A stretch of DNA of 64,000 bases from Thermoplasmatota archaeon (GCA_035541015.1 DATLFM010000097.1:719-64718); one strand, 5' to 3'; shown: positions 1,090 to 40,874, counted from the stretch's first letter. Notes: generated from the sequence alone by a model not told the origin. Made by a program: numbers and translations.

Positions 1090-3495
1090 TCATTGGACTT
1101 TCACGTTGTCGATGGCCCACCCGAGGTAGTTGTTGGCCGTCCCGTCGACCGAGTCGAAGAAGAAGCGGACCTTCGTGCCGCTGCTCTTGTAGCTCGACAG
1201 GCCGATCTCGACCGGGCCCCACGCCGTCTGGTCGGCGTTGCGGCTGTCGCGCTGCCAGAGGGTCGTCCACGACGTGCTGCCGGACACTTGCACCTGCACG
1301 CGCAGGATGTCGTAGGCGCCACCCGAATAGTTCTCCTTCACGTACTTCGTGTCGAAGGTGAGCTTGGGCGAGGCGATGTTGTTGAGGTTCATCGCCGGCG
1401 TGTCCGCGTTCCCGGTCGTGCGCGAGCCCGTCGCGTAGTTGCACGTGCTCGCCTGGTTGTACTGCAGGGAGTTGGGCGACGACACGGCTCCCGCGCACGT
1501 GCTGCCCACGCGCCACAGCCCGCTGAACGTCCAACCGGCAGGCGTGCCCGTTCCGCCGTCGAACTTCTCGTCGAGGACGGCCGTCGCAGCCTGGCACCCG
1601 CTGATGGACAGCGTGGCCGTGCCGGTGGCGCCGTTGTAGCCGCCAAGCTGGATGCGGTACGTCGTCCCGGAGGTGCAGGTGAAGCTGATCTGCGATTGCA
1701 GGCCGCCTCCCGTGTCGTCGTTGCAAGCGAGGTTCGCAAGTGAGCCAAGGCTGCTTCCGGTGTACGCGGCAACCACGGTGTCGTAGTTCGTGCTTCCGCC
1801 CACCGTGCTCACGGTCGCGGTGCCCGCGGCCGGCGCGGTCCAGCTGTACCAAACGGTCGCGCCGATGCTGCCGCACGGCCGCGGCTCGCCGGCCTCGAGG
1901 TCGGCCCCGCTCGTGCTTTGCGTGTTCGAGTAGGGCGATCCCGTGGCGGAGATGGGACTGCCAAAACAGTTGTTCGACGGTCCCGGACAGGAGGGCGTGG
2001 CCGAAACCTGGTTGCTGCGCGGTCCCTCGCCGACGGCGTTCACGGCGGAGACCTGGTAGTAGTACGTCACGCCGTTTGTCACGCTCGTGTCGGTGTACGA
2101 CGTCGTGACGCCAAGGCTCGCGTAGAGCGAGAGCGAGCCCGACGTGGTCCCCCGGTAGAGCCGGTAGCCCGTGATGGGGCTTCCGCCGTCGGAGGGCGTC
2201 GTCCACGAGAGCGACACTTGCAAGTTGCCGGCCGAGGCCGAAAGCGAAGGCGCCGAGGGCACTGAAGTCGCCGGAGCCGTCGCCGCGTCGGCGCGGATGC
2301 GGCCGTAGCCGAACTTGTTGTCGAAGCCCGCCGCGCCGAGGTCAAGGGCGGTGTTTCGCAATCGGTTCTCGATGTCCGTGAAGCCCCAGGACGGGTTGAG
2401 CGTCTTGAGGAGCGCGGCCGTGCCCGCCACGTGCGGCGTGGCCATCGAGGTGCCGCTCATCGTGCAGTAGCTGTTCGTGTTGGGGCCGCAGGCCGACAGG
2501 ATGTCGCTCCCGGGCGCCGAGACGTCCACTTGGGGCCCCTCGCTCGAGAAGCTCGAAAACCCGTCGGAGGAGGTCGTCGACGAGACGACGATCACGACAG
2601 ACGCCTTGTCGCGCCACGGGTAGGAGACGCAATTCGTGCACGGGCCCGAGTTGCCGGCGGCCGCGACGTGCGTGACGCCGCGGTCGTGCGAGTATTGCAC
2701 GGCGTCGTTCATGGCTGCGCTCGCGGCGCTGGAGCCCCACGAGTTCGAGGCGATGTGCGCGCCTTGGTCGCCGGCGTACTTGAGCGCGTTCACGAGCGTG
2801 GTGGTGGAGGACGTGCAGTAGATGCCGGAGACGTAGAACGCCTTCACGGGAAGGATCGTGTGCTGGCTCATGCCCGCGATGCCTTTGGCGTTGTTGATCG
2901 TGGCGCCGGCCGTGCCGGTGGTGTGCGTGCCGTGGTAGCCGCAGGCGCCTCCCTCGTCGTTCGGGTCGTTGTCGTTGTTCACGAAGTCGTACCCTTGCAG
3001 CACGCGGCCGGAGCCCGCGAACTCCTCGTGCGTCTTGACGAGGCCCGAATCCATCATCTGGACCTTGACGGAGGTGGAGCCAAGCGTCCGGTCCCACGCG
3101 GTCTCCGCGCCGATCTTCTTGCTGCCCCAGTGGCCCGAGTTGCCGTACAGGGAATCGTTGGGCACAAGCCGCAGGAAGGCCGCCATGGGGTTGTCCCATT
3201 CGTAGTAGCGCACGCGGTCGTCCGTGCGAACCTGCGCTTCGAAAAGCGAGGCTGGCTCGGCCCGCACGACGGCAAAGACGAGGTCCGCGTCGGTCCACAG
3301 CACGGTCGCACCGTGGTACGTCGCGCCCGGCTCGATCTCCGAAGGGATCCTGTCGAAGAACCCGACGATGTAGTCGCGCTCGCCCACCGGCGCGCGCGAA
3401 GGGTCCACGAGAATCGGATCGACGCTTGCAAGATCGGCCACGGCTGTGCCGTACGGGAAACCGAAGAACGCGATCGCGACGCTGACGCTCACCAA
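1090..3495 (-). CDS. Secreted subtilisin-like serine protease (peptidase S8) with C-terminal fibronectin-III/pre-peptidase beta-rich domains
   Basis: 801-aa ORF with a hydrophobic N-terminus. The catalytic S8 motifs are DSG..., GYHGTHTTGTAG and GTSMATPHVAG. The long Ser/Thr/Gly-rich C-terminal half is typical of surface proteases. Confidence 0.85.
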   Translation of the reverse strand: MVSVSVAIAFFGFPYGTAVADLASVDPILVDPSRAPVGERDYIVGFFDRIPSEIEPGATYHGATVLWTDADLVFAVVRAEPASLFEAQVRTDDRVRYYEWDNPMAAFLRLVPNDSLYGNSGHWGSKKIGAETAWDRTLGSTSVKVQMMDSGLVKTHEEFAGSGRVLQGYDFVNNDNDPNDEGGACGYHGTHTTGTAGATINNAKGIAGMSQHTILPVKAFYVSGIYCTSSTTTLVNALKYAGDQGAHIASNSWGSSAASAAMNDAVQYSHDRGVTHVAAAGNSGPCTNCVSYPWRDKASVVIVVSSTTSSDGFSSFSSEGPQVDVSAPGSDILSACGPNTNSYCTMSGTSMATPHVAGTAALLKTLNPSWGFTDIENRLRNTALDLGAAGFDNKFGYGRIRADAATAPATSVPSAPSLSASAGNLQVSLSWTTPSDGGSPITGYRLYRGTTSGSLSLYASLGVTTSYTDTSVTNGVTYYYQVSAVNAVGEGPRSNQVSATPSCPGPSNNCFGSPISATGSPYSNTQSTSGADLEAGEPRPCGSIGATVWYSWTAPAAGTATVSTVGGSTNYDTVVAAYTGSSLGSLANLACNDDTGGGLQSQISFTCTSGTTYRIQLGGYNGATGTATLSISGCQAATAVLDEKFDGGTGTPAGWTFSGLWRVGSTCAGAVSSPNSLQYNQASTCNYATGSRTTGNADTPAMNLNNIASPKLTFDTKYVKENYSGGAYDILRVQVQVSGSTSWTTLWQRDSRNADQTAWGPVEIGLSSYKSSGTKVRFFFDSVDGTANNYLGWAIDNVKVQ

Positions 3496-3596
3496 CCGAC
3501 GGAGGTTTCGCAGCCTCTCATGCCCCCGCCGCCGCAGCGTCCCGCCCCCCTATCAAGGTCGCGGGGGCGTTTCCGATGCGGGTTGCGTCGGAAGCT

Positions 3597-34253: not shown

Positions 34254-34916
34254 TCACGCGGCAAACGTGCCGCGGTCCGAAAGCGTGGCAAGCCCGCGGG
34301 AGGGCCCCGCCGACACGCCGTAGAGGTCGGCCACGGCCGCCACGATGTGACGCGAAGCGGCAAACGCCTTCGTGGAGCCAAGCGGCCCCTCGGCCTCCAC
34401 GGCAAACGAGCCGCCGGACATCCGGACGCGGACGGCCGACCCGTCCGGCTCGGCAAGCCACGTGAGCGTCGTCTCGCCGGGCCCCTCGGACTTGCCGTAC
34501 CAGCGCAACCCGCGGAACCAACGGCCCGAAAGACGCTCCACGACCGCCTCGGAACTCACGTGCGGCGGAAGGAGCGCCTGGAGAATGGGAACGGAAGGCG
34601 CGGCAAGCCGAGGCGCGGAGACGGCCCCCATCGCAACGGCGACGCGGCAGCCGGCGTCCGTGAGCCGATACCCGTTCTCGTCGTGCGCCACGAGGCCGTC
34701 GTCCTGCAAGCGCTTGAGCGCCCGCGCCAAGGCCTGCTGGTGGACGTGGAGGCGGCGGCGCAATCCCTGGAAGGCGACCGTGGCCTCGCAATCCTGCGCA
34801 AGTTCGGAGAGGACGCGGGCGTCCCGCTCGTCGATCGACGGAACGGGGCCCGGCGAGGCCTCGCAATCGCAAGCCGGAAGGGCAGGAGCGGAGATCTCCC
34901 GCTCGGTCGTTGCCAT
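34254..34916 (-). CDS. Winged-HTH transcriptional regulator with a C-terminal domain of unknown function
   Basis: The N-terminal segment RVLSELAQD.EATVAFQGLRRRLHVHQQALARALKRLQDDGLVAHDENGYRLTDAG is a MarR/TrmB-like wHTH. Confidence 0.55.
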   Translation of the reverse strand: MATTEREISAPALPACDCEASPGPVPSIDERDARVLSELAQDCEATVAFQGLRRRLHVHQQALARALKRLQDDGLVAHDENGYRLTDAGCRVAVAMGAVSAPRLAAPSVPILQALLPPHVSSEAVVERLSGRWFRGLRWYGKSEGPGETTLTWLAEPDGSAVRVRMSGGSFAVEAEGPLGSTKAFAASRHIVAAVADLYGVSAGPSRGLATLSDRGTFAA

Positions 34917-34940
34917 CGCGGAAGACTATGTGAGCGCTCC

Positions 34941-34948
34941 GTATATGA
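34941..34948. promoter_or_regulatory. Shared bidirectional TATA element (GTATATGA) in the 57-bp divergent intergenic region
   Basis: It lies about 28 nt from the start codons of both the minus-strand regulator (34916) and the plus-strand SGNH hydrolase (TTG at about 34974). Confidence 0.45.
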
Positions 34949-34973
34949 TGACTCACTTCGGGGAACGATAGCA

Positions 34974-35507
34974 TTGGACCTGCGACCCGTCGTCGCCTTC
35001 GGCGACAGCCACACGGAAGGCATCGGAGCGATTCCCGAGCGCGCGTACCCCGCCGTGCTCGAACGGCTGCTTGGCGTGCCCGTCGAAAACGCGGGCTGGC
35101 GGGGCGAGACGGCCTTCGAAGCCCTCTCCCGCCTCCCGCAGGAGGTGCTCGATCGCGACCCGCGCCTCGTGCTCGTCGAGTTCGGCGGAAACGAAGCGCT
35201 GCGCGGGGAACCCGTCGAGCGCGCGCTTTCCGGCCTCGACGCCATCCTCGCGGAGCTCTCCTCCCGACGCGTCCCGACGATCCTCGTCGGCGTCACCATT
35301 CCTGAATACGGAAGCGCGTGGGACGACGGGCTGCGCGCGCTTGCGATCCGCCACGACGCGGAGCTTGTCCTCCACGCACTCGACGGCATCCTTGGCGACC
35401 CCGCGTGCACGAGCGACGACGAATGGCACCTGAACGCGAACGGCTACCGCAAGCTCGCGGAACGGCTGGCGCCGGTCGTCGAGAAGGCGCTCGAACGGGC
35501 GCGATGA
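34974..35507 (+). CDS. SGNH/GDSL-family hydrolase (lipase/esterase)
   Basis: The block-I GDS motif is VAFGDSHTEG. The block-V DxxH is SDDEWHLN. The likely start is TTG at 34974, in frame within ORF 34347..35507. Confidence 0.7.
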   Translation: MDLRPVVAFGDSHTEGIGAIPERAYPAVLERLLGVPVENAGWRGETAFEALSRLPQEVLDRDPRLVLVEFGGNEALRGEPVERALSGLDAILAELSSRRVPTILVGVTIPEYGSAWDDGLRALAIRHDAELVLHALDGILGDPACTSDDEWHLNANGYRKLAERLAPVVEKALERAR

Positions 35508-35666: not shown

Positions 35667-35692
35667 CTCGGTCGCTTCGCTCCCTCGAAAAA

Positions 35693-35775
35693 CGTGGGCG
35701 CGGGGATTTGAACCCCGGAGTCCATGAGACACAGGATTAGCAATCCTGCGCCCTACCAGGCTAGGCGACGCCCAC
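35693..35775 (-). tRNA. tRNA-Ser (anticodon GCU) with a long variable arm
   Basis: Folded manually. The acceptor stem is GTGGGCG/CGCCCAC, the D-arm GCCT-AGCCTGGTA-GGGC, the anticodon stem CAGGA/TCCTG with loop TTGCTAA, the 14-nt variable arm stem GTC/GAC and the T-arm CGGGG-TTCAAAT-CCCCG. No encoded CCA. T5 lies immediately 3'. Confidence 0.85.
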
Positions 35776-36041
35776 AATCCAAAGCGGCGCTCGAATGCAG
35801 GCTCTCGCTATTAAAACAACGCGGTGGTCGGTTCCTCCTCGCGGTGACAGGGAATCCCTTAATGCCCGCCCGTTCAACGTCAGGCCAACGCTTGCGCTGC
35901 AAGCGCCAACGACACCAACAGCCCCGACCAAAAACGAGGCGGCGACCTCGTTGGCTCCCCCGGGCCGCACCCCGGGGGAGCGTCCCACTCCTTCCCGCGC
36001 GCAAGCGGCAGCCCTTTTTGCGCCCGCGCCGTTTGCCCCGC

Positions 36042-37613
36042 GTGCCCGCCTCGCTGCTGTTCCGCAACGGCACGATCCTCACCATGGACCCCGCCCGCCC
36101 GCGGGTCGAGGCCCTCGCCGTCGGCGGCGGGCGCATCCTCGCCGCAGGCTCGCTCACGGAGGCGCGCGCGTTCGCAGGTCCGGGCACGCGGGTCGTCGAC
36201 CTTGGCCGACGCTGCCTGCTTCCGGCCTTCGTGGACGCCCACACGCATCTCACCCACTTTGGCCTCGACCTCTCGCGCCTGGACCTCTCGCAGGCCCGAA
36301 GCCTCCGCTCGGCGCTCGCCTCCCTGCGCGTCCGCGCCGCGCGCGCCAAGCCCGGCGCTTGGATCGTCGCACACTCGTTCGACGAGACGCGCTGGCCCGA
36401 GAACCGGCTTCCCACGCGCGCGGACCTCGACGCCGTCGCGCCCAACCGCAAGGTCCTTCTCCGCCGCGTGGACGGCCACAGCGCCGTCGTGAGCTCCGCC
36501 GCGCTCGTTCGGCTGGACCTGCGGGGGGTCGAAGGCGTCGAGCGCAAGGCGGGCGTCGCCACGGGCGTGCTGCGCGAGGACGCGGCGGACCGCGCGTACG
36601 AGGCCGCCCGGGCCACGCGCGAGGAGGTCGACGCGGGCTTGCGGAGGGGGGCGCGGCGGTTGCACGCGATGGGCGTGGCAAGCGTGGCCGAGACCTCCGA
36701 AGCGTGGGAGGCACGGGCGTATCGTCGCCACGCCCGCTCCGGGCGGCCGCTTGTTCGGGCGTACCTCAAGGCGCGCGAGTCGTTGCTCGACGAGGCGCTC
36801 GCCCGGGGCACCGCGGGCGACGCGTGGATCCGCTGGGGCGGCGTGAAACTGTACCTCGACGGGAGCTTTGGGTCGCACACGGCTGCGCTCTCGGAACCGT
36901 TTGCCGACGCGCCCGACGTGCGCGGGCTCCTCACGTACTCGGATGCGCGCTTGCGGTCGATCGCGCGGCGGGCGCACGCGGGCGGGCTGCAGCTTTGCAT
37001 GCACGCGATCGGCGACCGCGCGATCGACCAGGCGTTGGCGGCCGCGGCCGACGCGCAGCGGTCGCGCGCCCGCGCCGACGCGCGTCATCGGATCGAGCAT
37101 TTCCTTCTTCCCTCGCAGGACGCGATCGAGCGGGCGCGGCGCCTGGGCGTCGTGGCAAGCGTGCAGCCGAACTTTTTGGGCCGCTGGGGCGGCAAGGACG
37201 GGTTGTACGAGCGACGGCTGGGCGTGCGGCGCGCGTCGCGGTTGCTGCCGCTTCGCGACATGGCCGACGCGGGCGTGCGGATCGCCCTCGGGAGCGACGG
37301 CATGCCCTACGGTCCCCTGTTTGGCATCCATTCGGCCGTGAACGCGCGTTACCCCCGCCAACGGCTGACGGTCGACGAGGCGCTGCGGGCCTACACGGCC
37401 GACGCCGCTTGGGCGTGCCATGCGGAGGATCGCGTTGGAAGCCTTTCGCCGGGGAAGCTTGCGGACCTCGTCGTGCTCTCGCGCGATCCGCGTGAGGACC
37501 CGACCCGCATCGACCGGCTCTCCGCGGTCGCCACGTACCTCGACGGAAAGCTCGTGCACGGGGCCGTCTACCGCAGGCTGTCGAGCCAGCGGTCGGCGCG
37601 CAGCAGGCCGTAG
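36042..37613 (+). CDS. Metal-dependent amidohydrolase (Amidohydro_3/YtcJ-like)
   Basis: The metal-binding motifs are HTHL, MHAIGD, the IEH block and ALGSDG. The likely start is GTG at about 36042 (VPASLLFRNGTILTMDP), in frame within ORF 35724..37613, whose 5' part overlaps the tRNA. Confidence 0.8.
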   Translation: MPASLLFRNGTILTMDPARPRVEALAVGGGRILAAGSLTEARAFAGPGTRVVDLGRRCLLPAFVDAHTHLTHFGLDLSRLDLSQARSLRSALASLRVRAARAKPGAWIVAHSFDETRWPENRLPTRADLDAVAPNRKVLLRRVDGHSAVVSSAALVRLDLRGVEGVERKAGVATGVLREDAADRAYEAARATREEVDAGLRRGARRLHAMGVASVAETSEAWEARAYRRHARSGRPLVRAYLKARESLLDEALARGTAGDAWIRWGGVKLYLDGSFGSHTAALSEPFADAPDVRGLLTYSDARLRSIARRAHAGGLQLCMHAIGDRAIDQALAAAADAQRSRARADARHRIEHFLLPSQDAIERARRLGVVASVQPNFLGRWGGKDGLYERRLGVRRASRLLPLRDMADAGVRIALGSDGMPYGPLFGIHSAVNARYPRQRLTVDEALRAYTADAAWACHAEDRVGSLSPGKLADLVVLSRDPREDPTRIDRLSAVATYLDGKLVHGAVYRRLSSQRSARSRP

Positions 37614-38641
37614 CCGTACCGATCGTCGTGCGCAAGTCCCGACGCGCCGGCAAGCGGCCCGATCTTCTGCGCCGAGGCGGCAAGCGCGCTCTTCACGGCG
37701 CCGATGTGGCCGGCCCGGCTTCCCTCGCGCTTGAATTCGGGCTTGGCCTCGAGAAGGAGCGCAAGGGCGGCGGCCACGTACGGCGCGGCTTGGCTCGTGC
37801 CGTCGGCCGTCGCGTACTGCCCGCCGCGCCAGGGCCCGAGGATGCCCACGCCCGGCGCGACGATCTCGGGCTTGCGGTCGGGATTCTGCCGCGCGCCCAC
37901 GAGGCCGCCCACCACGCCGCCGTTGTCGCCCCGCTGGCTGAACGACGCGATGCGAAGGTTCCGGTCCACGGCGCCCACGGCGATCACGTCCTTCACGCTC
38001 GCCGGGCTTGCGACGTCGCCGTTTCCGCCGCCCTCGCGGTTGCCCGCGGCCGCGACGACGAACACGCCCGCGCGCAGCGCGTCGGAGACGGCGTTCTCCG
38101 TTTCCGTCCCAAGGAGGAGGCCCTTGGCGCCGCCCAGGCTCATGAGGATGACGTGCGCGCCTTGCGTCTTGGCCGTCGTGACCGCGCGCGCGACCGTCGT
38201 GTCCGATCCCTCCCCGCCGGCCCGGATGGCCTTGATGACGAGGAGCTCGACGCCCGGCGCGGAGGGCGCAAGCTTCACGCCGCTTAGGATCTCGGCCCAG
38301 AGACCCGTCGCGCCGACGACGAGGCCCGCCACGTGCGTGCCGTGCCCGTTGTCGTCGTACGGCTTGCCCTGCCCGTTCACGAGATCGGCCCATCGGACGG
38401 TGCGGCCCGCAAACGCCGGATGATCGGGATCGATGCCCGTGTCGATGATGGCAAGCCGCACGCCCGCCCCCGTGAGCCCGCGTCCGGCGAGCGTGGAAAG
38501 GCCCGTGGCCTCGCGAGCCCACTCGGTCTGCGCCACGCAGCCGGCAAGCGAGGGGACGAGGAGGAGGGCGGCAAGGGCAAGGCCAAGCGGCTGCGCGCGC
38601 ACGACAACGCGGAAGCGCCCGCGCGGGAAAACGTTTTTCAT
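37568..38641 (-). CDS. Subtilisin-like serine protease (S8), predicted lipoprotein
   Basis: The likely start is MKNVFPRGRFRVVVRAQPLGLALAALLLVPSLAGC, with a lipobox LAGC. An alternative GTG start is at about 38602. S8 motifs IIDTGID, DDNGHGTHVAG and GTSQAAPYVAAALALL are present. Confidence 0.8.
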   Translation of the reverse strand: MKNVFPRGRFRVVVRAQPLGLALAALLLVPSLAGCVAQTEWAREATGLSTLAGRGLTGAGVRLAIIDTGIDPDHPAFAGRTVRWADLVNGQGKPYDDNGHGTHVAGLVVGATGLWAEILSGVKLAPSAPGVELLVIKAIRAGGEGSDTTVARAVTTAKTQGAHVILMSLGGAKGLLLGTETENAVSDALRAGVFVVAAAGNREGGGNGDVASPASVKDVIAVGAVDRNLRIASFSQRGDNGGVVGGLVGARQNPDRKPEIVAPGVGILGPWRGGQYATADGTSQAAPYVAAALALLLEAKPEFKREGSRAGHIGAVKSALAASAQKIGPLAGASGLAHDDRYGYGLLRADRWLDSLR

Positions 38642-39743
38642 GCCACCCCCGGCTGCGGAGCCGATGCCCGGCGCGCTGCTTTTGGCCCACGACCGCTTCG
38701 ACCCGCTGTGGGGGAAGACGGCCGTATGCATCCTCCGCTACAACCCCGGCCGCGCGGTGGCCGTCGTGGACCGCAGCAACGCCGGCCGCGACGCGGGCGA
38801 GGTCGTTGGCCCCGTCGGCCGCGGCGTGCCCGTCGTCGCGTCGGTCGAAGAGGGGCTGCGATTTGGCCCCGACGAGGTCGTGATCGGAATCGCGCCCGTG
38901 GGAGGCGCCCTCCCGGACGCCTGGCGGCCGGACCTCCGCGCGGCGCTCGACAACGGCCTCGGCGTCGTCTCGGGCCTTCACACCTTCCTCGCCGACGACC
39001 CCGAGCTGTCCGCGCTTGCGCAAAAGAGCGGCGCAAGCATCGTGGACGTCCGCCGGCCGCCAGCCGAGAAGCGCATCCTCGACGGCTCGGGGCGCCGGGT
39101 CCGCGCGCCCGTCGTCCTCACGGTCGGCACGGATTGCTCCTCCGGCAAGATGACGACCGCCGTGGAGATCGTGCGCGCCGCCCGCGCGCGGGGCCTTCGG
39201 GCCGCGTTTGCCGCGACGGGGCAGACGGGGATCATGATCGGCGCCGACGCGGGCGTCGCCGTCGACGCCGTCGTCTCCGACTTCGTGGCGGGCGCGACCG
39301 AGCGCCTCGTGCTCGAATGCGCCCGCTCCGACCCCGACCTCATCGTGGTCGAGGGTCAAGGCACGCTCACGCATCCCGCCTACGCGGGCGTCACGGCAAG
39401 CCTTCTGTTCGGGGCCTGCCCCGACCTCCTCGTGCTCTGCCACGACGCGCGACGCAAGGAGATGAAGGGCTTTGGCGCAAAGCTCCGCTCGCCGCGCGAG
39501 GAGATCGCCCTCAACGAGACGCTCCTGTCCGGTTGGACGCGCGGGAAGGCGTGCGCCGTCTCGCTCATGACGCTTGGTCTCTCCGAGCGCGCGGCCAAGG
39601 ACGCCGTCGCCCGCGTGCGCCGCCAGACCCGGCTGCCCACGACCGATCCCGTGCGCTCTGGCCCAAAGCCGCTGCTCGACGCGGTGCTCGCGCGCGCCGG
39701 AAAGATCCCCGGCAAGCGCGCCCTCCGGAGGCTGAAGCGCTGA
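38640..39743 (+). CDS. DUF1611-family protein (Rossmann-like, typically partnered with dipeptide epimerase)
   Basis: The start ATG at 38640 overlaps the opposite-strand S8 start codon. The alternative Met at 38664 gives MPGALLLAHDRFDPLWGKTA. The family assignment rests on overall pattern and on the conserved partner gene downstream. Confidence 0.6.
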   Translation: MPPPAAEPMPGALLLAHDRFDPLWGKTAVCILRYNPGRAVAVVDRSNAGRDAGEVVGPVGRGVPVVASVEEGLRFGPDEVVIGIAPVGGALPDAWRPDLRAALDNGLGVVSGLHTFLADDPELSALAQKSGASIVDVRRPPAEKRILDGSGRRVRAPVVLTVGTDCSSGKMTTAVEIVRAARARGLRAAFAATGQTGIMIGADAGVAVDAVVSDFVAGATERLVLECARSDPDLIVVEGQGTLTHPAYAGVTASLLFGACPDLLVLCHDARRKEMKGFGAKLRSPREEIALNETLLSGWTRGKACAVSLMTLGLSERAAKDAVARVRRQTRLPTTDPVRSGPKPLLDAVLARAGKIPGKRALRRLKR

Positions 39744-40771
39744 AGCTCTCCGTGGGCGTCGTCGACCTTCGGCTCTCCCGCCCGTTTGTCATCAGCGCCG
39801 GCGCCGCCACGACGGAAAGGACGCTCGTCGTGGAGCTCTCGCACGACGGCCTCGTCGGCCTTGGCGAGGCCTCGCCGAGCGCGCGCGTGTGCGGAGAGAC
39901 GCTCGACGACGCGTCGCGCTTCCTCGACGGCGTAGCGGCGCGAATTGCGCGCGGCGAGCTTTCGGACCCCGTCGCGCTTCTCTCCTGGGTCGACAAGCAA
40001 ACGGGCACGCCCGCCGCGCGGTGCGCGGTCGAAACGGCCGTCGCCGACCTTCTGGGCAAGCAGCGGAAGAAGAGCGTGGCGCAGCTTCTCAACCTGCAAC
40101 CGGCGCGGCTTCCCACGAGCGCCACCGTGAGCCTGGGATTGCCCGAGGCCATGGCCAAGCAGTCCGTCGAGTACGTCGAGCGGGGTTTTAGGGTCCTAAA
40201 AGTGAAGGTGGGCGAGGCCGCGCGCGACGTCGAGCGGGTGGCGGCGATCCGCGACGCATGCCCGGAGGCGGCGATCCGTTGCGACGCCAACGGGGGCTGG
40301 AGCGAGGCGGAGGCCGTCCGCGTGACCTCGGCCTTGGAAAAGCTCGAGATCGAGCTTCTGGAGCAGCCGCTTGCGCGCGGCAGCGAGGCGGCGATCCGAA
40401 GGCTTGCGGGCTGGACGGACGTCCCGATCTTCCTCGACGAGAGCGTGCTCTCGTTCGCGGACGCGCAGCAAGCGGTGGCGGACCGCGTGGCCGACGGCAT
40501 CAACGTGAAGCTCATGAAGACCGGCGGCCTGCACGAGGCCCTGCGCATCGCGCGGCACGCCCGCGCGCACGACTGGCCGCTCATGATCGGCTGCATGATC
40601 GAGACGTCCGTTGGCATCACGGCCGCAAGCCATCTTTTGGCCGCCTTCGACCACGCGGACCTCGACGGCGCGTTCCTCACGGCGAACGATCCGTTCGAGG
40701 GGGCGACCCTCCGCGACGGATTTGTCGCGCCACCGCCGGGGCCGGGTCTTGGCGTGCGGCCGAAACCGTGA
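39740..40771 (+). CDS. Enolase-superfamily dipeptide epimerase (L-Ala-D/L-Glu epimerase-like)
   Basis: It contains KVKVG, CDANGGW, LEQP, IFLDES, NVKLMKTGG and the MIGCMIETSVG catalytic-lysine and metal-ligand layout of MR/MLE enzymes. The start is CTG or GTG at 39740-39752 and overlaps the DUF1611 stop. Confidence 0.75.
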   Translation: MKLSVGVVDLRLSRPFVISAGAATTERTLVVELSHDGLVGLGEASPSARVCGETLDDASRFLDGVAARIARGELSDPVALLSWVDKQTGTPAARCAVETAVADLLGKQRKKSVAQLLNLQPARLPTSATVSLGLPEAMAKQSVEYVERGFRVLKVKVGEAARDVERVAAIRDACPEAAIRCDANGGWSEAEAVRVTSALEKLEIELLEQPLARGSEAAIRRLAGWTDVPIFLDESVLSFADAQQAVADRVADGINVKLMKTGGLHEALRIARHARAHDWPLMIGCMIETSVGITAASHLLAAFDHADLDGAFLTANDPFEGATLRDGFVAPPPGPGLGVRPKP

Positions 40772-40835
40772 ACGGGCCGCGGCGAAACCGTCGCGCGGCG
40801 CGCGGATTTCGCGCGCTCTGGCCGGCCCCCCGACA

Positions 40836-40845
40836 CCTATTAATA
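40836..40845 (+). promoter_or_regulatory. Palindromic TATA box (CTATTAATAG) of the A1AO ATP synthase operon
   Basis: It lies about 34 nt upstream of the atpH ATG (40875), which gives a leaderless or short-leader transcript. Confidence 0.55.
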
Positions 40846-40874
40846 GTGCAACCCGATTCCCCGCCCGAAGTTCC

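What the first reader, a model, noticed from the sequence alone, without database searches (positions are those of the whole stretch)
37568..40771. Head-to-head S8 lipoprotein protease versus a DUF1611 plus dipeptide-epimerase pair, with overlapping divergent start codons
The DUF1611 / L-Ala-D/L-Glu-epimerase gene pair is a known bacterial peptidoglycan-peptide recycling pair. Its presence in an archaeon, next to a secreted lipobox subtilisin, suggests scavenging of bacterial murein peptides or D-amino-acid dipeptides. The two first ATG and CAT codons (38639..38642) overlap on opposite strands, so there is no room for two promoters. At least one start is probably downstream, the protease at a GTG at about 38602 or DUF1611 at the Met at about 38664. 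Otherwise transcription is unusual.
Basis: partly seen in the sequence, partly recalled or inferred. Interest (0 to 1): 0.55.

Follow-up and report, generated by a model that had tools for sequence, protein, structure and literature searches.

The report
Archaeal protease beside D-glutamate salvage genes
A soil-type Thermoplasmatota archaeon carries a membrane-anchored subtilisin gene back-to-back with a two-gene module that most likely converts D-glutamate (a bacterial cell-wall amino acid) into usable L-glutamate. The apparent overlap of their start codons disappears once both starts are placed correctly, about 31 bases either side of one shared palindromic promoter element.

Summary
The three genes are real. 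They are an S8 lipoprotein protease (minus strand), a DUF1611 protein and an enolase-superfamily epimerase (plus strand, 8 nt apart). The CATG at 38639-38642 exists, but neither half is the likely start. Homologue alignments and NCBI's own annotation (HVL88191-93) put the DUF1611 start at ATG 38664 and the protease start at GTG 38602. Between them lies a unique palindrome, AAAACGTTTT (38628-38637), about 31 nt from each start. AT-rich islands in this 69% GC window sit 25-34 nt upstream of start codons far more often than chance predicts. The layout therefore looks like an ordinary archaeal leaderless bidirectional promoter.

The gene pair matches DgcN/DgcA best: D-glutamate N-acetyltransferase plus N-acetyl-D-glutamate racemase (Yu et al. 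2023, known in Proteobacteria and haloarchaea). Both score below NCBI's equivalog cut-offs, and both fall in a separate archaeal clade. The enolase sits inside the dipeptide-epimerase group, not with o-succinylbenzoate synthase (OSBS), and keeps every catalytic residue. An orthologous S8 lipoprotein is divergently linked in 8 of 11 related archaeal loci, which is a modestly new association. Overall this is a new member of a known kind, of low-to-moderate interest.

The parts
37568..38602 (-). S8 (subtilisin-family) serine peptidase, 344 aa from GTG 38602. ENA/JGI gene calls use the alternative ATG 38641 (357 aa). Catalytic Asp/His/Ser motifs are present (IIDTG, HGTHVAG, GTSQAAP).
   Evidence: Pfam PF00082 scores 154.9 bits. 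NCBI HVL88191.1 is 344 aa and starts MRAQPLGL. N-termini of orthologues align with GTG 38602. The closest solved structures are Tk-SP and subtilisin Carlsberg.
38537..38602 (-). Signal peptide with lipobox, MRAQPLGLALAALLLVPSLAG|C (22 residues up to and including the Cys).
   Evidence: Read directly from the sequence. A lipobox ([LV][AST]GC or STGC) is conserved in all six S8 orthologues, 19-28 residues from their start (19-22 in five of them).
38627..38640 (.). Palindromic AT-rich element GAAAACGTTTTTCA. The perfect palindrome AAAACGTTTT spans 38628-38637. It is the proposed shared (or interdigitated) BRE/TATA promoter for both divergent genes. Its centre lies about 31 nt from ATG 38664 and from GTG 38602.
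   Evidence: There is one exact copy in 64 kb. With one mismatch or fewer there are 3 copies against 0.31 expected, and 0 of 100 shuffles reach 3. All three copies have their centre 31-32.5 nt upstream of a called start codon. AT-rich islands are enriched 25-34 nt upstream of start codons: 12 of 26 against 12.4% expected, P=2e-5. Islands serving both directions number 2 of 26 against 0.065% expected, P=1.4e-4. Relatives carry AT-rich elements in the same register.
38639..38642 (.). It is most likely a coincidental sequence at the edge of the promoter element, not a pair of start codons.
38664..39743 (+). DUF1611 protein (359 aa), DgcN-like, putative D-glutamate N-acetyltransferase. The P-loop-like GTDCSSGKMT and ATGQTG motifs are conserved.
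   Evidence: Pfam PF17396 and PF07755 match. The best NCBIfam hit is NF041892 DgcN at 253.9 bits, below the 480 cut-off. PDB hits are 2obn, 2g0t and 7xrj. 34 of 38 near-invariant family columns are shared with a PGAP-named Vibrio DgcN. The start is fixed by alignment A1.
39752..40771 (+). Enolase-superfamily racemase/epimerase (339 aa from GTG 39752), DgcA-like/dipeptide-epimerase-like. A CTG at 39740 overlaps the DUF1611 stop (CTGA) and sits at the position of the start Met of orthologues.
   Evidence: Pfam MR_MLE_N and MR_MLE_C match. NCBIfam ranks DgcA at 227.9 bits above the Thermotoga-type L-Ala-D/L-Glu epimerase (AEE) at 182.7, YcjG at 166.5 and OSBS at 125 or less. The catalytic K150/K152, D178/E204/D229, K253 and D303-x-D305 are all present. 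In the NJ tree it falls in an archaeal DUF1611-linked clade.
36042..37613 (+). YtcJ-like Amidohydro_3 amidohydrolase (523 aa). It converges on the S8 gene with a 46-nt overlap. It could be the missing deacylase, but the link is weak.
   Evidence: Gene call and Pfam assignment are. Orthologues lie near the S8 in L083, L085, L098 and L179. It is not close to haloarchaeal D-aminoacylases. NCBIfam gives only generic hits.
40835..40848 (+). Separate AT-rich element (CCTATTAATAGTG) 33 nt upstream of ATG 40875, the first gene of the A-type ATPase operon. It marks the downstream end of the DUF1611-enolase transcription unit.

Best explanation
The locus is a compact divergent gene cluster of a Thermoplasmatota archaeon. 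On the minus strand is a lipid-anchored extracellular subtilisin starting at GTG 38602. On the plus strand is a two-gene operon: a DUF1611/DgcN-like gene starting at ATG 38664, then an AEE/DgcA-like enolase 8 nt downstream.

Both units are driven from one 61-bp intergenic region. Its only AT-rich feature is the palindrome GAAAACGTTTTTC. On each strand it reads as an A-rich BRE followed by a T-rich TATA-like run centred about 27 nt upstream of the start codon. Both mRNAs would therefore be leaderless or nearly so.

The operon most likely carries out the DgcN/DgcA route. The DUF1611 enzyme acetylates imported D-glutamate (possibly other acidic D-amino acids) using acetyl-CoA. The enolase-family racemase inverts C-alpha of N-acetyl-D-Glu by the two-lysine, Mg2+-stabilised enolate mechanism. 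A deacylase not identified here then releases L-glutamate.

What is shown: gene identities, domain content, catalytic residues, start-codon support, promoter-motif statistics and conserved linkage. What is inferred: substrates, direction of flux, use of the palindrome as a promoter, and any functional coupling with the protease.
For: Start codons: alignment A1, NCBI records of 344, 359 and 339 aa, and S8 orthologue N-termini.

Promoter evidence. The motif count is 3 against 0.31 expected, and all three copies have their centre 31-32.5 nt upstream of start codons. AT-island enrichment gives P=2e-5. A second bidirectional case lies at 34942-34951, between ATG 34916 (minus) and TTG 34974 (plus). 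Relatives carry in-register elements: GATAAGCCTTTT, GATAACGCTTTG and GATAATCCTTTA upstream of DUF1611, and AAACGCTTTA and GAACCTTTTAAG upstream of the S8. Transcription in both directions from one TATA box has been shown experimentally in Pyrococcus furiosus (PMC6640164).

Operon evidence. The gap is 8 nt here and ranges from -4 to +20 nt in most relatives.

Function evidence. DgcN and DgcA are the top NCBIfam hits. JGI names close homologues (63% identity) 'D-glutamate N-acetyltransferase'. All AEE/DgcA catalytic residues are conserved. The DUF1611 and enolase trees are congruent, so the two genes evolve as a module across phyla. The pathway and its EC numbers 2.3.1.312 and 5.1.1.25 are described. 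GC and GC3 equal those of housekeeping genes, so this is not a recent import.
Against: Both proteins score far below NCBI's equivalog cut-offs: 253.9 against 480, and 227.9 against 400. The validated-type DgcA from Vibrio clusters with YcjG, not with the window's enolase. The window's DUF1611 is closer to uncharacterised 2obn and TM0796 than to 7xrj. Deep nodes of the NJ trees are poorly supported.

The capping loop lacks an Arg at the position that binds the Glu side-chain carboxylate in YkfB, so the substrate side chain is uncertain. No transporter, DgcR-type regulator or clear deacylase is adjacent. No transcript data exist. Prodigal-type callers prefer ATG 38641 for the S8. I could not read the primary DgcN paper, so its catalytic residues and the identity of its haloarchaeal clade could not be checked.
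Confidence: 0.6

Rival explanations
1. Classical murein-peptide route. The enolase is a true L-Ala-D/L-Glu (or other dipeptide) epimerase acting on dipeptides from bacterial peptidoglycan, and DUF1611 plays an accessory, still unknown role.
For: The DxD motif that binds the dipeptide alpha-ammonium group is intact (D303, D305). The top PDB hits are characterised dipeptide epimerases (3jva, 1tkk, 3ijq). In haloarchaeal plasmids, DUF1611+epimerase pairs sit among NlpC/P60, DacB, D-aminoacylase, S9 peptidase and peptide ABC transporter genes. NCBI names the protein 'dipeptide epimerase'.
Against: The PGAP-named DgcA also keeps DxD and is the sister of YcjG, so DxD does not discriminate. DgcA is the best-scoring NCBIfam model. 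No NlpC/P60, MpaA or LdcA-type enzyme and no peptide transporter lies near the pair in any of the 11 archaeal-clade loci. The only biochemical assignment for a DUF1611 protein is D-Glu N-acetylation.
Confidence: 0.2
2. The starts are as called by Prodigal-type software (S8 at ATG 38641, DUF1611 at 38664, or even 38640). The genes would then be only 22 bp apart or overlapping, and each promoter would lie inside the other gene's coding sequence.
For: ENA/JGI gene calls give a 357-aa S8. ATG is generally the preferred start for leaderless archaeal mRNAs (my own knowledge). A weak A-run (CCAAAAGC) lies about 40 nt upstream of 38641.
Against: There is no AT-rich island (8 or more A/T in 10) anywhere in 38642-38720. 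A 35-residue signal peptide would be an outlier against 19-22 in five of the six orthologues. PGAP chose GTG 38602. The MPPPAAEP extension is absent from all 19 homologues.
Confidence: 0.15
3. The protease's neighbourhood to the pair is inherited gene order with no functional meaning. The S8 is a general extracellular protease unrelated to D-amino-acid metabolism.
For: The genes are on opposite strands. One to four unrelated genes (GAF, NUDIX, small ORFs) separate them in L085, L087, L098 and L179. Sub-lineage B (L097, L180, L181) and every non-archaeal locus examined lack the S8. The S8 resembles ordinary subtilisins. The window holds a second S8 protease at 1093-3549.
Against: Linkage survives at about 50% protein identity and persists in L095 and L096, where the wider context (ATPase operon, amidohydrolase) has changed. 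In three genomes the genes share a 61-91 bp divergent promoter region.
Confidence: 0.45

Closest known systems
DgcN-DgcA D-glutamate catabolic pathway (Pseudoalteromonas sp. CF6-2; Yu et al. 2023, ISME J 17:537; EC 2.3.1.312 and EC 5.1.1.25)
   Same: A DUF1611 gene is followed directly, in the same orientation, by an AEE-like enolase-superfamily gene. These are the best NCBIfam hits for both proteins. There is a full-length match to 7xrj, and the same catalytic residues are present in the racemase. The pathway has been reported in archaea (Halobacteria).
   Different: Scores are about half the equivalog cut-offs. Both proteins belong to a separate archaeal clade, with 37% and 33% identity to the Vibrio DgcN and DgcA. 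There is no LysR-type DgcR regulator. The host is Thermoplasmatota. An S8 lipoprotein gene is conserved as a divergent neighbour.
L-Ala-D/L-Glu epimerases YkfB (B. subtilis, 1tkk) and YcjG (E. coli) of murein-peptide recycling
   Same: MR_MLE fold, KxK motif, D/E/D metal ligands, second Lys, and the DxD motif. Identity is 33-37%.
   Different: The partners YkfC (NlpC/P60) and MpaA/MppA are missing. The capping loop has Ala-Gly where YkfB has Leu23-Arg24. The gene is paired with DUF1611 instead.
Haloarchaeal megaplasmid clusters holding DUF1611 + 'dipeptide epimerase' (Halorussus halophilus, Haladaptatus caseinilyticus, Haloprofundus salinisoli)
   Same: They are archaeal and carry the same two-gene module, annotated identically by PGAP (DUF1611 domain-containing protein; dipeptide epimerase).
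   Different: Those pairs form another clade (with Thermotoga TM0796 and the Thermotoga AEE) and score best against the Thermotoga-type AEE model. They are embedded among NlpC/P60, DacB, D-aminoacylase, S9 peptidase and peptide ABC transporter genes, not next to an S8 lipoprotein.
Bidirectional BRE-TATA-BRE promoters of Pyrococcus furiosus (Gruenberger et al. 2019, PMC6640164)
   Same: A single symmetric AT-rich element lies midway between two divergent start points. In P. furiosus the TSS-TSS distance is about 49-50 bp. Here the start codons are 62 nt apart, and 58 nt apart at the second case in the window.
   Different: Here the element serves two protein-coding genes rather than producing an antisense RNA. 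It sits in a 69% GC genome where such elements are rare. Its two halves (A-run and T-run) may act as BRE and TATA for each other. Nothing has been mapped experimentally.

Membership tests
Pfam DUF1611 (PF07755 + PF17396) | Both domains score above the gathering cut-off, in N-then-C order. | tested here: met
   237.1 bits (cut-off 25) and 109.6 bits (cut-off 22.6).
DgcN (NCBIfam NF041892 equivalog; EC 2.3.1.312) | Score at or above the curated equivalog cut-off (480 bits). | tested here: not met
   253.9 bits. The Vibrio control scores 506.9. Haloarchaeal plasmid homologues score 188-192, so the model is narrow.
DgcN (NCBIfam NF041892 equivalog; EC 2.3.1.312) | Conservation of family-invariant residues shared with a bona fide DgcN. 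| tested here: met
   34 of 38 near-invariant columns are identical to the PGAP-named Vibrio DgcN. The four differences are on the Vibrio side. The published catalytic residues could not be checked because the paper is not held.
DgcN (NCBIfam NF041892 equivalog; EC 2.3.1.312) | Acetyl-CoA-dependent N-acetylation of D-glutamate. | not testable with these tools
   Requires an enzyme assay.
DgcN-DgcA module | The DUF1611 gene is immediately followed, in the same orientation, by an AEE-like enolase gene. | tested here: met
   The gap is 8 nt in the window. The same order is found in all 11 archaeal-clade loci and in Vibrio.
DgcA (NCBIfam NF042940 equivalog; EC 5.1.1.25) | Score at or above the curated cut-off (400 bits). 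| tested here: not met
   227.9 bits, although this is the best of 17 matching models. The Vibrio control scores 413.7.
DgcA (NCBIfam NF042940 equivalog; EC 5.1.1.25) | Groups phylogenetically with validated DgcA. | tested here: not met
   In the NJ tree, Vibrio DgcA pairs with YcjG (100% bootstrap). The window sits in a separate archaeal DUF1611-linked clade (89%). Deep nodes are unresolved.
Dipeptide-epimerase-like group of the MLE subgroup, enolase superfamily | KxK motif, three carboxylate metal ligands, second catalytic Lys, and the DxD motif. | tested here: met
   K150, K152, D178, E204, D229, K253, D303 and D305 align with YkfB K160, K162, D191, E219, D244, K268, D321 and D323. Residue roles are taken from bioRxiv 10.1101/2022.05.01.490185.
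L-Ala-D/L-Glu epimerase (NF041118 / NF011708 equivalogs) | Score at or above the cut-offs (500 / 343 bits). | tested here: not met
   182.7 and 166.5 bits.
L-Ala-D/L-Glu epimerase (NF041118 / NF011708 equivalogs) | A capping-loop Arg (YkfB R24) that binds the Glu side-chain carboxylate. | tested here: inconclusive
   The window has A16-G17 at YkfB positions 23-24. Many relatives, YcjG and DgcA have Arg at position 23. An Arg lies six residues further along the loop (R23). The loop alignment is uncertain.
   OSBS models score 125 bits or less and mucon_cyclo scores 136, against 228 for DgcA. The tree places the protein inside the epimerase group, with the MLE-like sequence as outgroup.
Peptidase S8 (subtilase), secreted lipoprotein | S8 domain with the Asp/His/Ser triad, plus a signal peptide ending in a lipobox Cys. 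| tested here: met
   PF00082 scores 154.9 bits. The triad motifs and LAGC were read in the sequence. The lipobox is conserved in six orthologues. Lipidation itself is not testable here.
Archaeal bidirectional (shared TATA) promoter | A symmetric AT-rich BRE/TATA element midway between divergent transcription starts about 50 bp apart. | tested here: inconclusive
   The sequence geometry fits. No TSS data are available.

The most novel reading that the evidence does not exclude
In one lineage of high-GC Thermoplasmatota, a lipid-anchored S8 protease and a DgcN/DgcA-like pair would form a dedicated, co-regulated three-gene unit transcribed from a single palindromic bidirectional promoter. Its role would be to harvest bacterial necromass, with the pair detoxifying or assimilating the D-glutamate released. 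In several members the racemase gene would in addition be translated by termination-reinitiation at a non-canonical CTG codon that overlaps the upstream stop (CTGA).
Probability: 0.2. Interest if true: 0.5.

Novelty: new member of a known kind. Interest (0 to 1): 0.3.

Why it matters
D-glutamate from bacterial cell walls is a large and poorly used pool of organic nitrogen. A vertically inherited DgcN/DgcA-like module, conserved at one chromosomal position across a Thermoplasmatota lineage, would extend this recently discovered salvage route beyond marine Proteobacteria and haloarchaea. It would also mark these uncultured archaea as consumers of bacterial necromass. On the practical side, the case shows how a mis-called start codon creates an apparent paradox. 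It also yields a usable promoter motif (AAAACGTTTT-like, about 31 nt upstream of starts) for re-annotating start codons in these MAGs.

Tried and rejected
1. An exact look-up of the 367-aa DUF1611 form starting at 38640 found nothing on record. Only the 359-aa form exists.

2. The primary DgcN paper (PMC10030869) and Lukk et al. 2012 (PMC3306705) are not held. DgcN catalytic residues and published specificity rules could therefore not be applied.

They returned mostly Gemmatimonadota and other bacterial loci at 53% identity or less, not the close relatives I wanted. Those loci were useful only as negative controls for S8 linkage. They also showed that Gemmatimonadota DUF1611 genes lack an adjacent enolase.

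4. I tested whether the neighbouring Amidohydro_3 is a D-aminoacylase, as in the haloarchaeal clusters. It is not: BLAST E-values are 0.003 or worse, and it gets only generic NCBIfam hits. Assigning it as the pathway's deacylase is therefore left as a weak guess.

5. The DxD motif was considered as a discriminator between dipeptide epimerase and N-acetyl-Glu racemase. It was rejected because PGAP-named DgcA keeps it.

6. Recent horizontal transfer was rejected, because GC and GC3 match housekeeping genes and synteny is conserved.

7. The sigma-70 promoter scanner was not used, because the organism is an archaeon.

Full report
**What is there.** The window is 69% GC and archaeal. It encodes an archaeal LonB, SRP54, DUF63 and an A-type ATPase operon. 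The exact DUF1611 protein is on record as HVL88192.1 from a 'Candidatus Thermoplasmatota archaeon' MAG. Between 37568 and 40771 there are three genes:
- an S8 subtilase on the minus strand, with a lipobox (LAGC);
- a DUF1611_N+DUF1611 protein on the plus strand;
- 8 nt further on, an MR_MLE_N+MR_MLE_C enolase-superfamily protein.

**Start codons.** I aligned the DUF1611 protein with 19 homologues of 52-100% identity. Nearly all of them begin M-[RP]-ALxLAHD, which corresponds to Met 38664. The eight extra residues from ATG 38640 have no counterpart. No gene product starting at 38640 is on record.

For the protease, ENA/JGI calls use ATG 38641 (357 aa). NCBI's PGAP record HVL88191.1 is 344 aa and begins MRAQPLGL, that is, at GTG 38602. 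The orthologous S8 proteins of six related loci all carry a short signal peptide and a conserved lipobox, and in five of them the peptide is 19-22 residues long. That matches GTG 38602 (22 residues to the Cys), not ATG 38641 (35 residues). The two real starts are therefore most likely 62 nt apart.

**Promoter.** The only AT-rich feature in the 61-bp spacer is GAAAACGTTTTTC. It contains the perfect palindrome AAAACGTTTT (38628-38637), whose centre lies about 31 nt from each start. Several results support reading it as a promoter:
- The window has only 26 AT-rich islands (8 or more A/T in 10 nt).
- Twelve of them have a plausible start codon of a high-GC3 ORF 25-34 nt from their centre. Random positions give 12.4% (P=2e-5).
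- Two of them have such a start in both directions, against 0.065% for random positions (P=1.4e-4). The second case lies between a MarR-like gene (ATG 34916, minus) and a GDSL lipase gene (TTG 34974, plus).
- AAAACGTTTT with one mismatch or fewer occurs three times, against 0.31 expected. All three copies have their centre 31-32.5 nt upstream of a called start codon.
- Relatives carry AT-rich elements in the same register upstream of both genes.

This is the normal geometry of archaeal BRE/TATA promoters driving leaderless or near-leaderless mRNAs (the geometry is from my own knowledge). Transcription in both directions from one TATA element has been demonstrated in P. furiosus, with TSSs about 49-50 bp apart (PMC6640164). 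'No room for two promoters' is therefore not a problem once the starts are corrected. No transcript data exist, so promoter use remains an inference.

**Function of the pair.** NCBIfam ranks DgcN first for the DUF1611 protein (253.9 bits). For the enolase it ranks DgcA first (227.9 bits), ahead of the two L-Ala-D/L-Glu epimerase models (182.7 and 166.5) and the OSBS models (125 or less). All scores are below the curated cut-offs. DgcN/DgcA is a D-glutamate catabolic route: D-Glu is converted to N-acetyl-D-Glu, then to N-acetyl-L-Glu, then to L-Glu. It was described in 2023 for marine Proteobacteria and halophilic archaea (cited). I could not read the primary paper.

The enolase keeps every catalytic residue of the dipeptide-epimerase/DgcA type: K150/K152, D178/E204/D229, K253 and D303-x-D305.

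NJ trees show four clades of DUF1611-linked enolases inside the dipeptide-epimerase group:
- Vibrio DgcA together with YcjG;
- haloarchaeal plasmid pairs together with the Thermotoga AEE;
- a bacterial clade;
- an archaeal clade that contains the window.

The DUF1611 tree is congruent with this, so the two genes evolve as a module. Strict orthology to validated DgcA is not shown either. The DxD motif does not separate the two activities, and the capping loop lacks the YkfB Arg24 equivalent, so the exact substrate stays open. I rate the DgcN/DgcA-type function as the most likely (about 0.55-0.6), and a dipeptide substrate as the main rival.

**The protease link.** An orthologous S8 lipoprotein (48-63% identity) lies divergently within 2.5 kb upstream of the pair in 8 of 11 loci of the archaeal clade. 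Two of these (L095, L096) have an otherwise different wider context. It is absent from a second sub-lineage, where the pair sits between TrkAH/MGMT and PolD genes. It is also absent from the 80 genome-contig loci scanned, which are mostly bacterial.

In five of the eight S8-linked loci the pair also sits directly upstream of the A-type ATPase operon, which has its own AT-rich element at 40835-40848. The S8 looks like an ordinary subtilisin, and nothing ties it chemically to D-Glu. The conserved linkage is a modestly new observation. It suggests co-regulation in peptide and necromass scavenging, but inherited synteny cannot be excluded.

**Comparison and novelty.** Haloarchaeal megaplasmids carry DUF1611+epimerase pairs inside clear murein-peptide clusters (NlpC/P60, DacB, D-aminoacylase, S9 peptidase, peptide transporters). 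Archaeal scavenging of bacterial wall components through this module is therefore already visible in public annotation. The window adds a Thermoplasmatota clade in which the module is vertically inherited (GC and GC3 equal those of housekeeping genes) and has an S8 partner.

**Verdict.** This is a new member of a known kind. The transcriptional 'anomaly' is an annotation artefact, resolved by ordinary archaeal promoter architecture. Interest is about 0.3.

Noticed in passing
window 39740-39754; L098 9021-9090; L097 9120-9245; L181 8111-8122: The codon at the position of the enolase's start Met in orthologues overlaps the DUF1611 stop as NTGA in 7 of 11 loci. It is CTG (CTGA) in the window, L098, L097 and L181. 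In L098 and L097 the next canonical start lies 22 and 41 codons downstream and would delete the conserved RPFVIS strand and the capping loop. That suggests initiation or termination-reinitiation at CTG. High GC3 alone makes C or G likely at that base, so the argument rests on the missing alternative starts.
   Followed up: partly
window 34916-34974: There is a second divergent gene pair whose start codons are 58 nt apart: a MarR/HVO_A0261-like regulator (ATG 34916, minus) and a GDSL lipase (TTG 34974, plus). They flank one AT-rich element, CGTATATGATGA (34942-34951). This is the same architecture as the S8/DUF1611 pair.
   Followed up: partly
window 37568-37613: The Amidohydro_3 gene (plus strand, ends 37613) and the S8 gene (minus strand, ends 37568) converge and overlap by 46 nt at their 3' ends.
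   Followed up: no
window 35692-35776 and 35807-35820: tRNA-Ser(GCT) lies on the minus strand. An AT-rich element, GCTATTAAAACAA, lies about 37 nt upstream of its 5' end. The same element is 30 nt upstream of a GTG (35844) that would extend the amidohydrolase ORF, so that gene's start (called at 36042) is uncertain.
   Followed up: no
window 1093-3549 (-): A second, larger S8 protease with a fibronectin type III domain (about 819 aa ORF). The organism appears to be rich in extracellular proteases.
   Followed up: no
L090 (Natrialba magadii pNMAG01), L093 (Halorussus halophilus), L094 (Haladaptatus caseinilyticus): Haloarchaeal megaplasmids carry what look like complete bacterial-murein-peptide scavenging clusters: DacB, NlpC/P60, LysA, dipeptide epimerase, D-aminoacylase, S9 peptidase and an oligopeptide ABC transporter. 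Some include a DUF1611 gene and some do not.
   Followed up: partly
L006-L082 (Gemmatimonadota loci): In nearly all Gemmatimonadota loci the DUF1611 gene has no enolase-superfamily gene in the fetched flanks (up to 10 kb each side). In Chloroflexota, Planctomycetota, Eisenbacteria, Obscuribacteraceae and the archaea it is immediately adjacent. DUF1611 may therefore have a partner-independent role in that phylum.
   Followed up: no
(trees): Thermotoga maritima TM0796 (2g0t, DUF1611) and the T. maritima dipeptide epimerase (3deq) each cluster with the haloarchaeal plasmid DUF1611/epimerase pairs. This hints that the two Thermotoga proteins are a functional pair even if they are not adjacent in that genome.
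   Followed up: no
window 40839-40848: The putative promoter of the A-type ATPase operon is also a perfect palindrome (CTATTAATAG), 33 nt upstream of ATG 40875.
   Followed up: no
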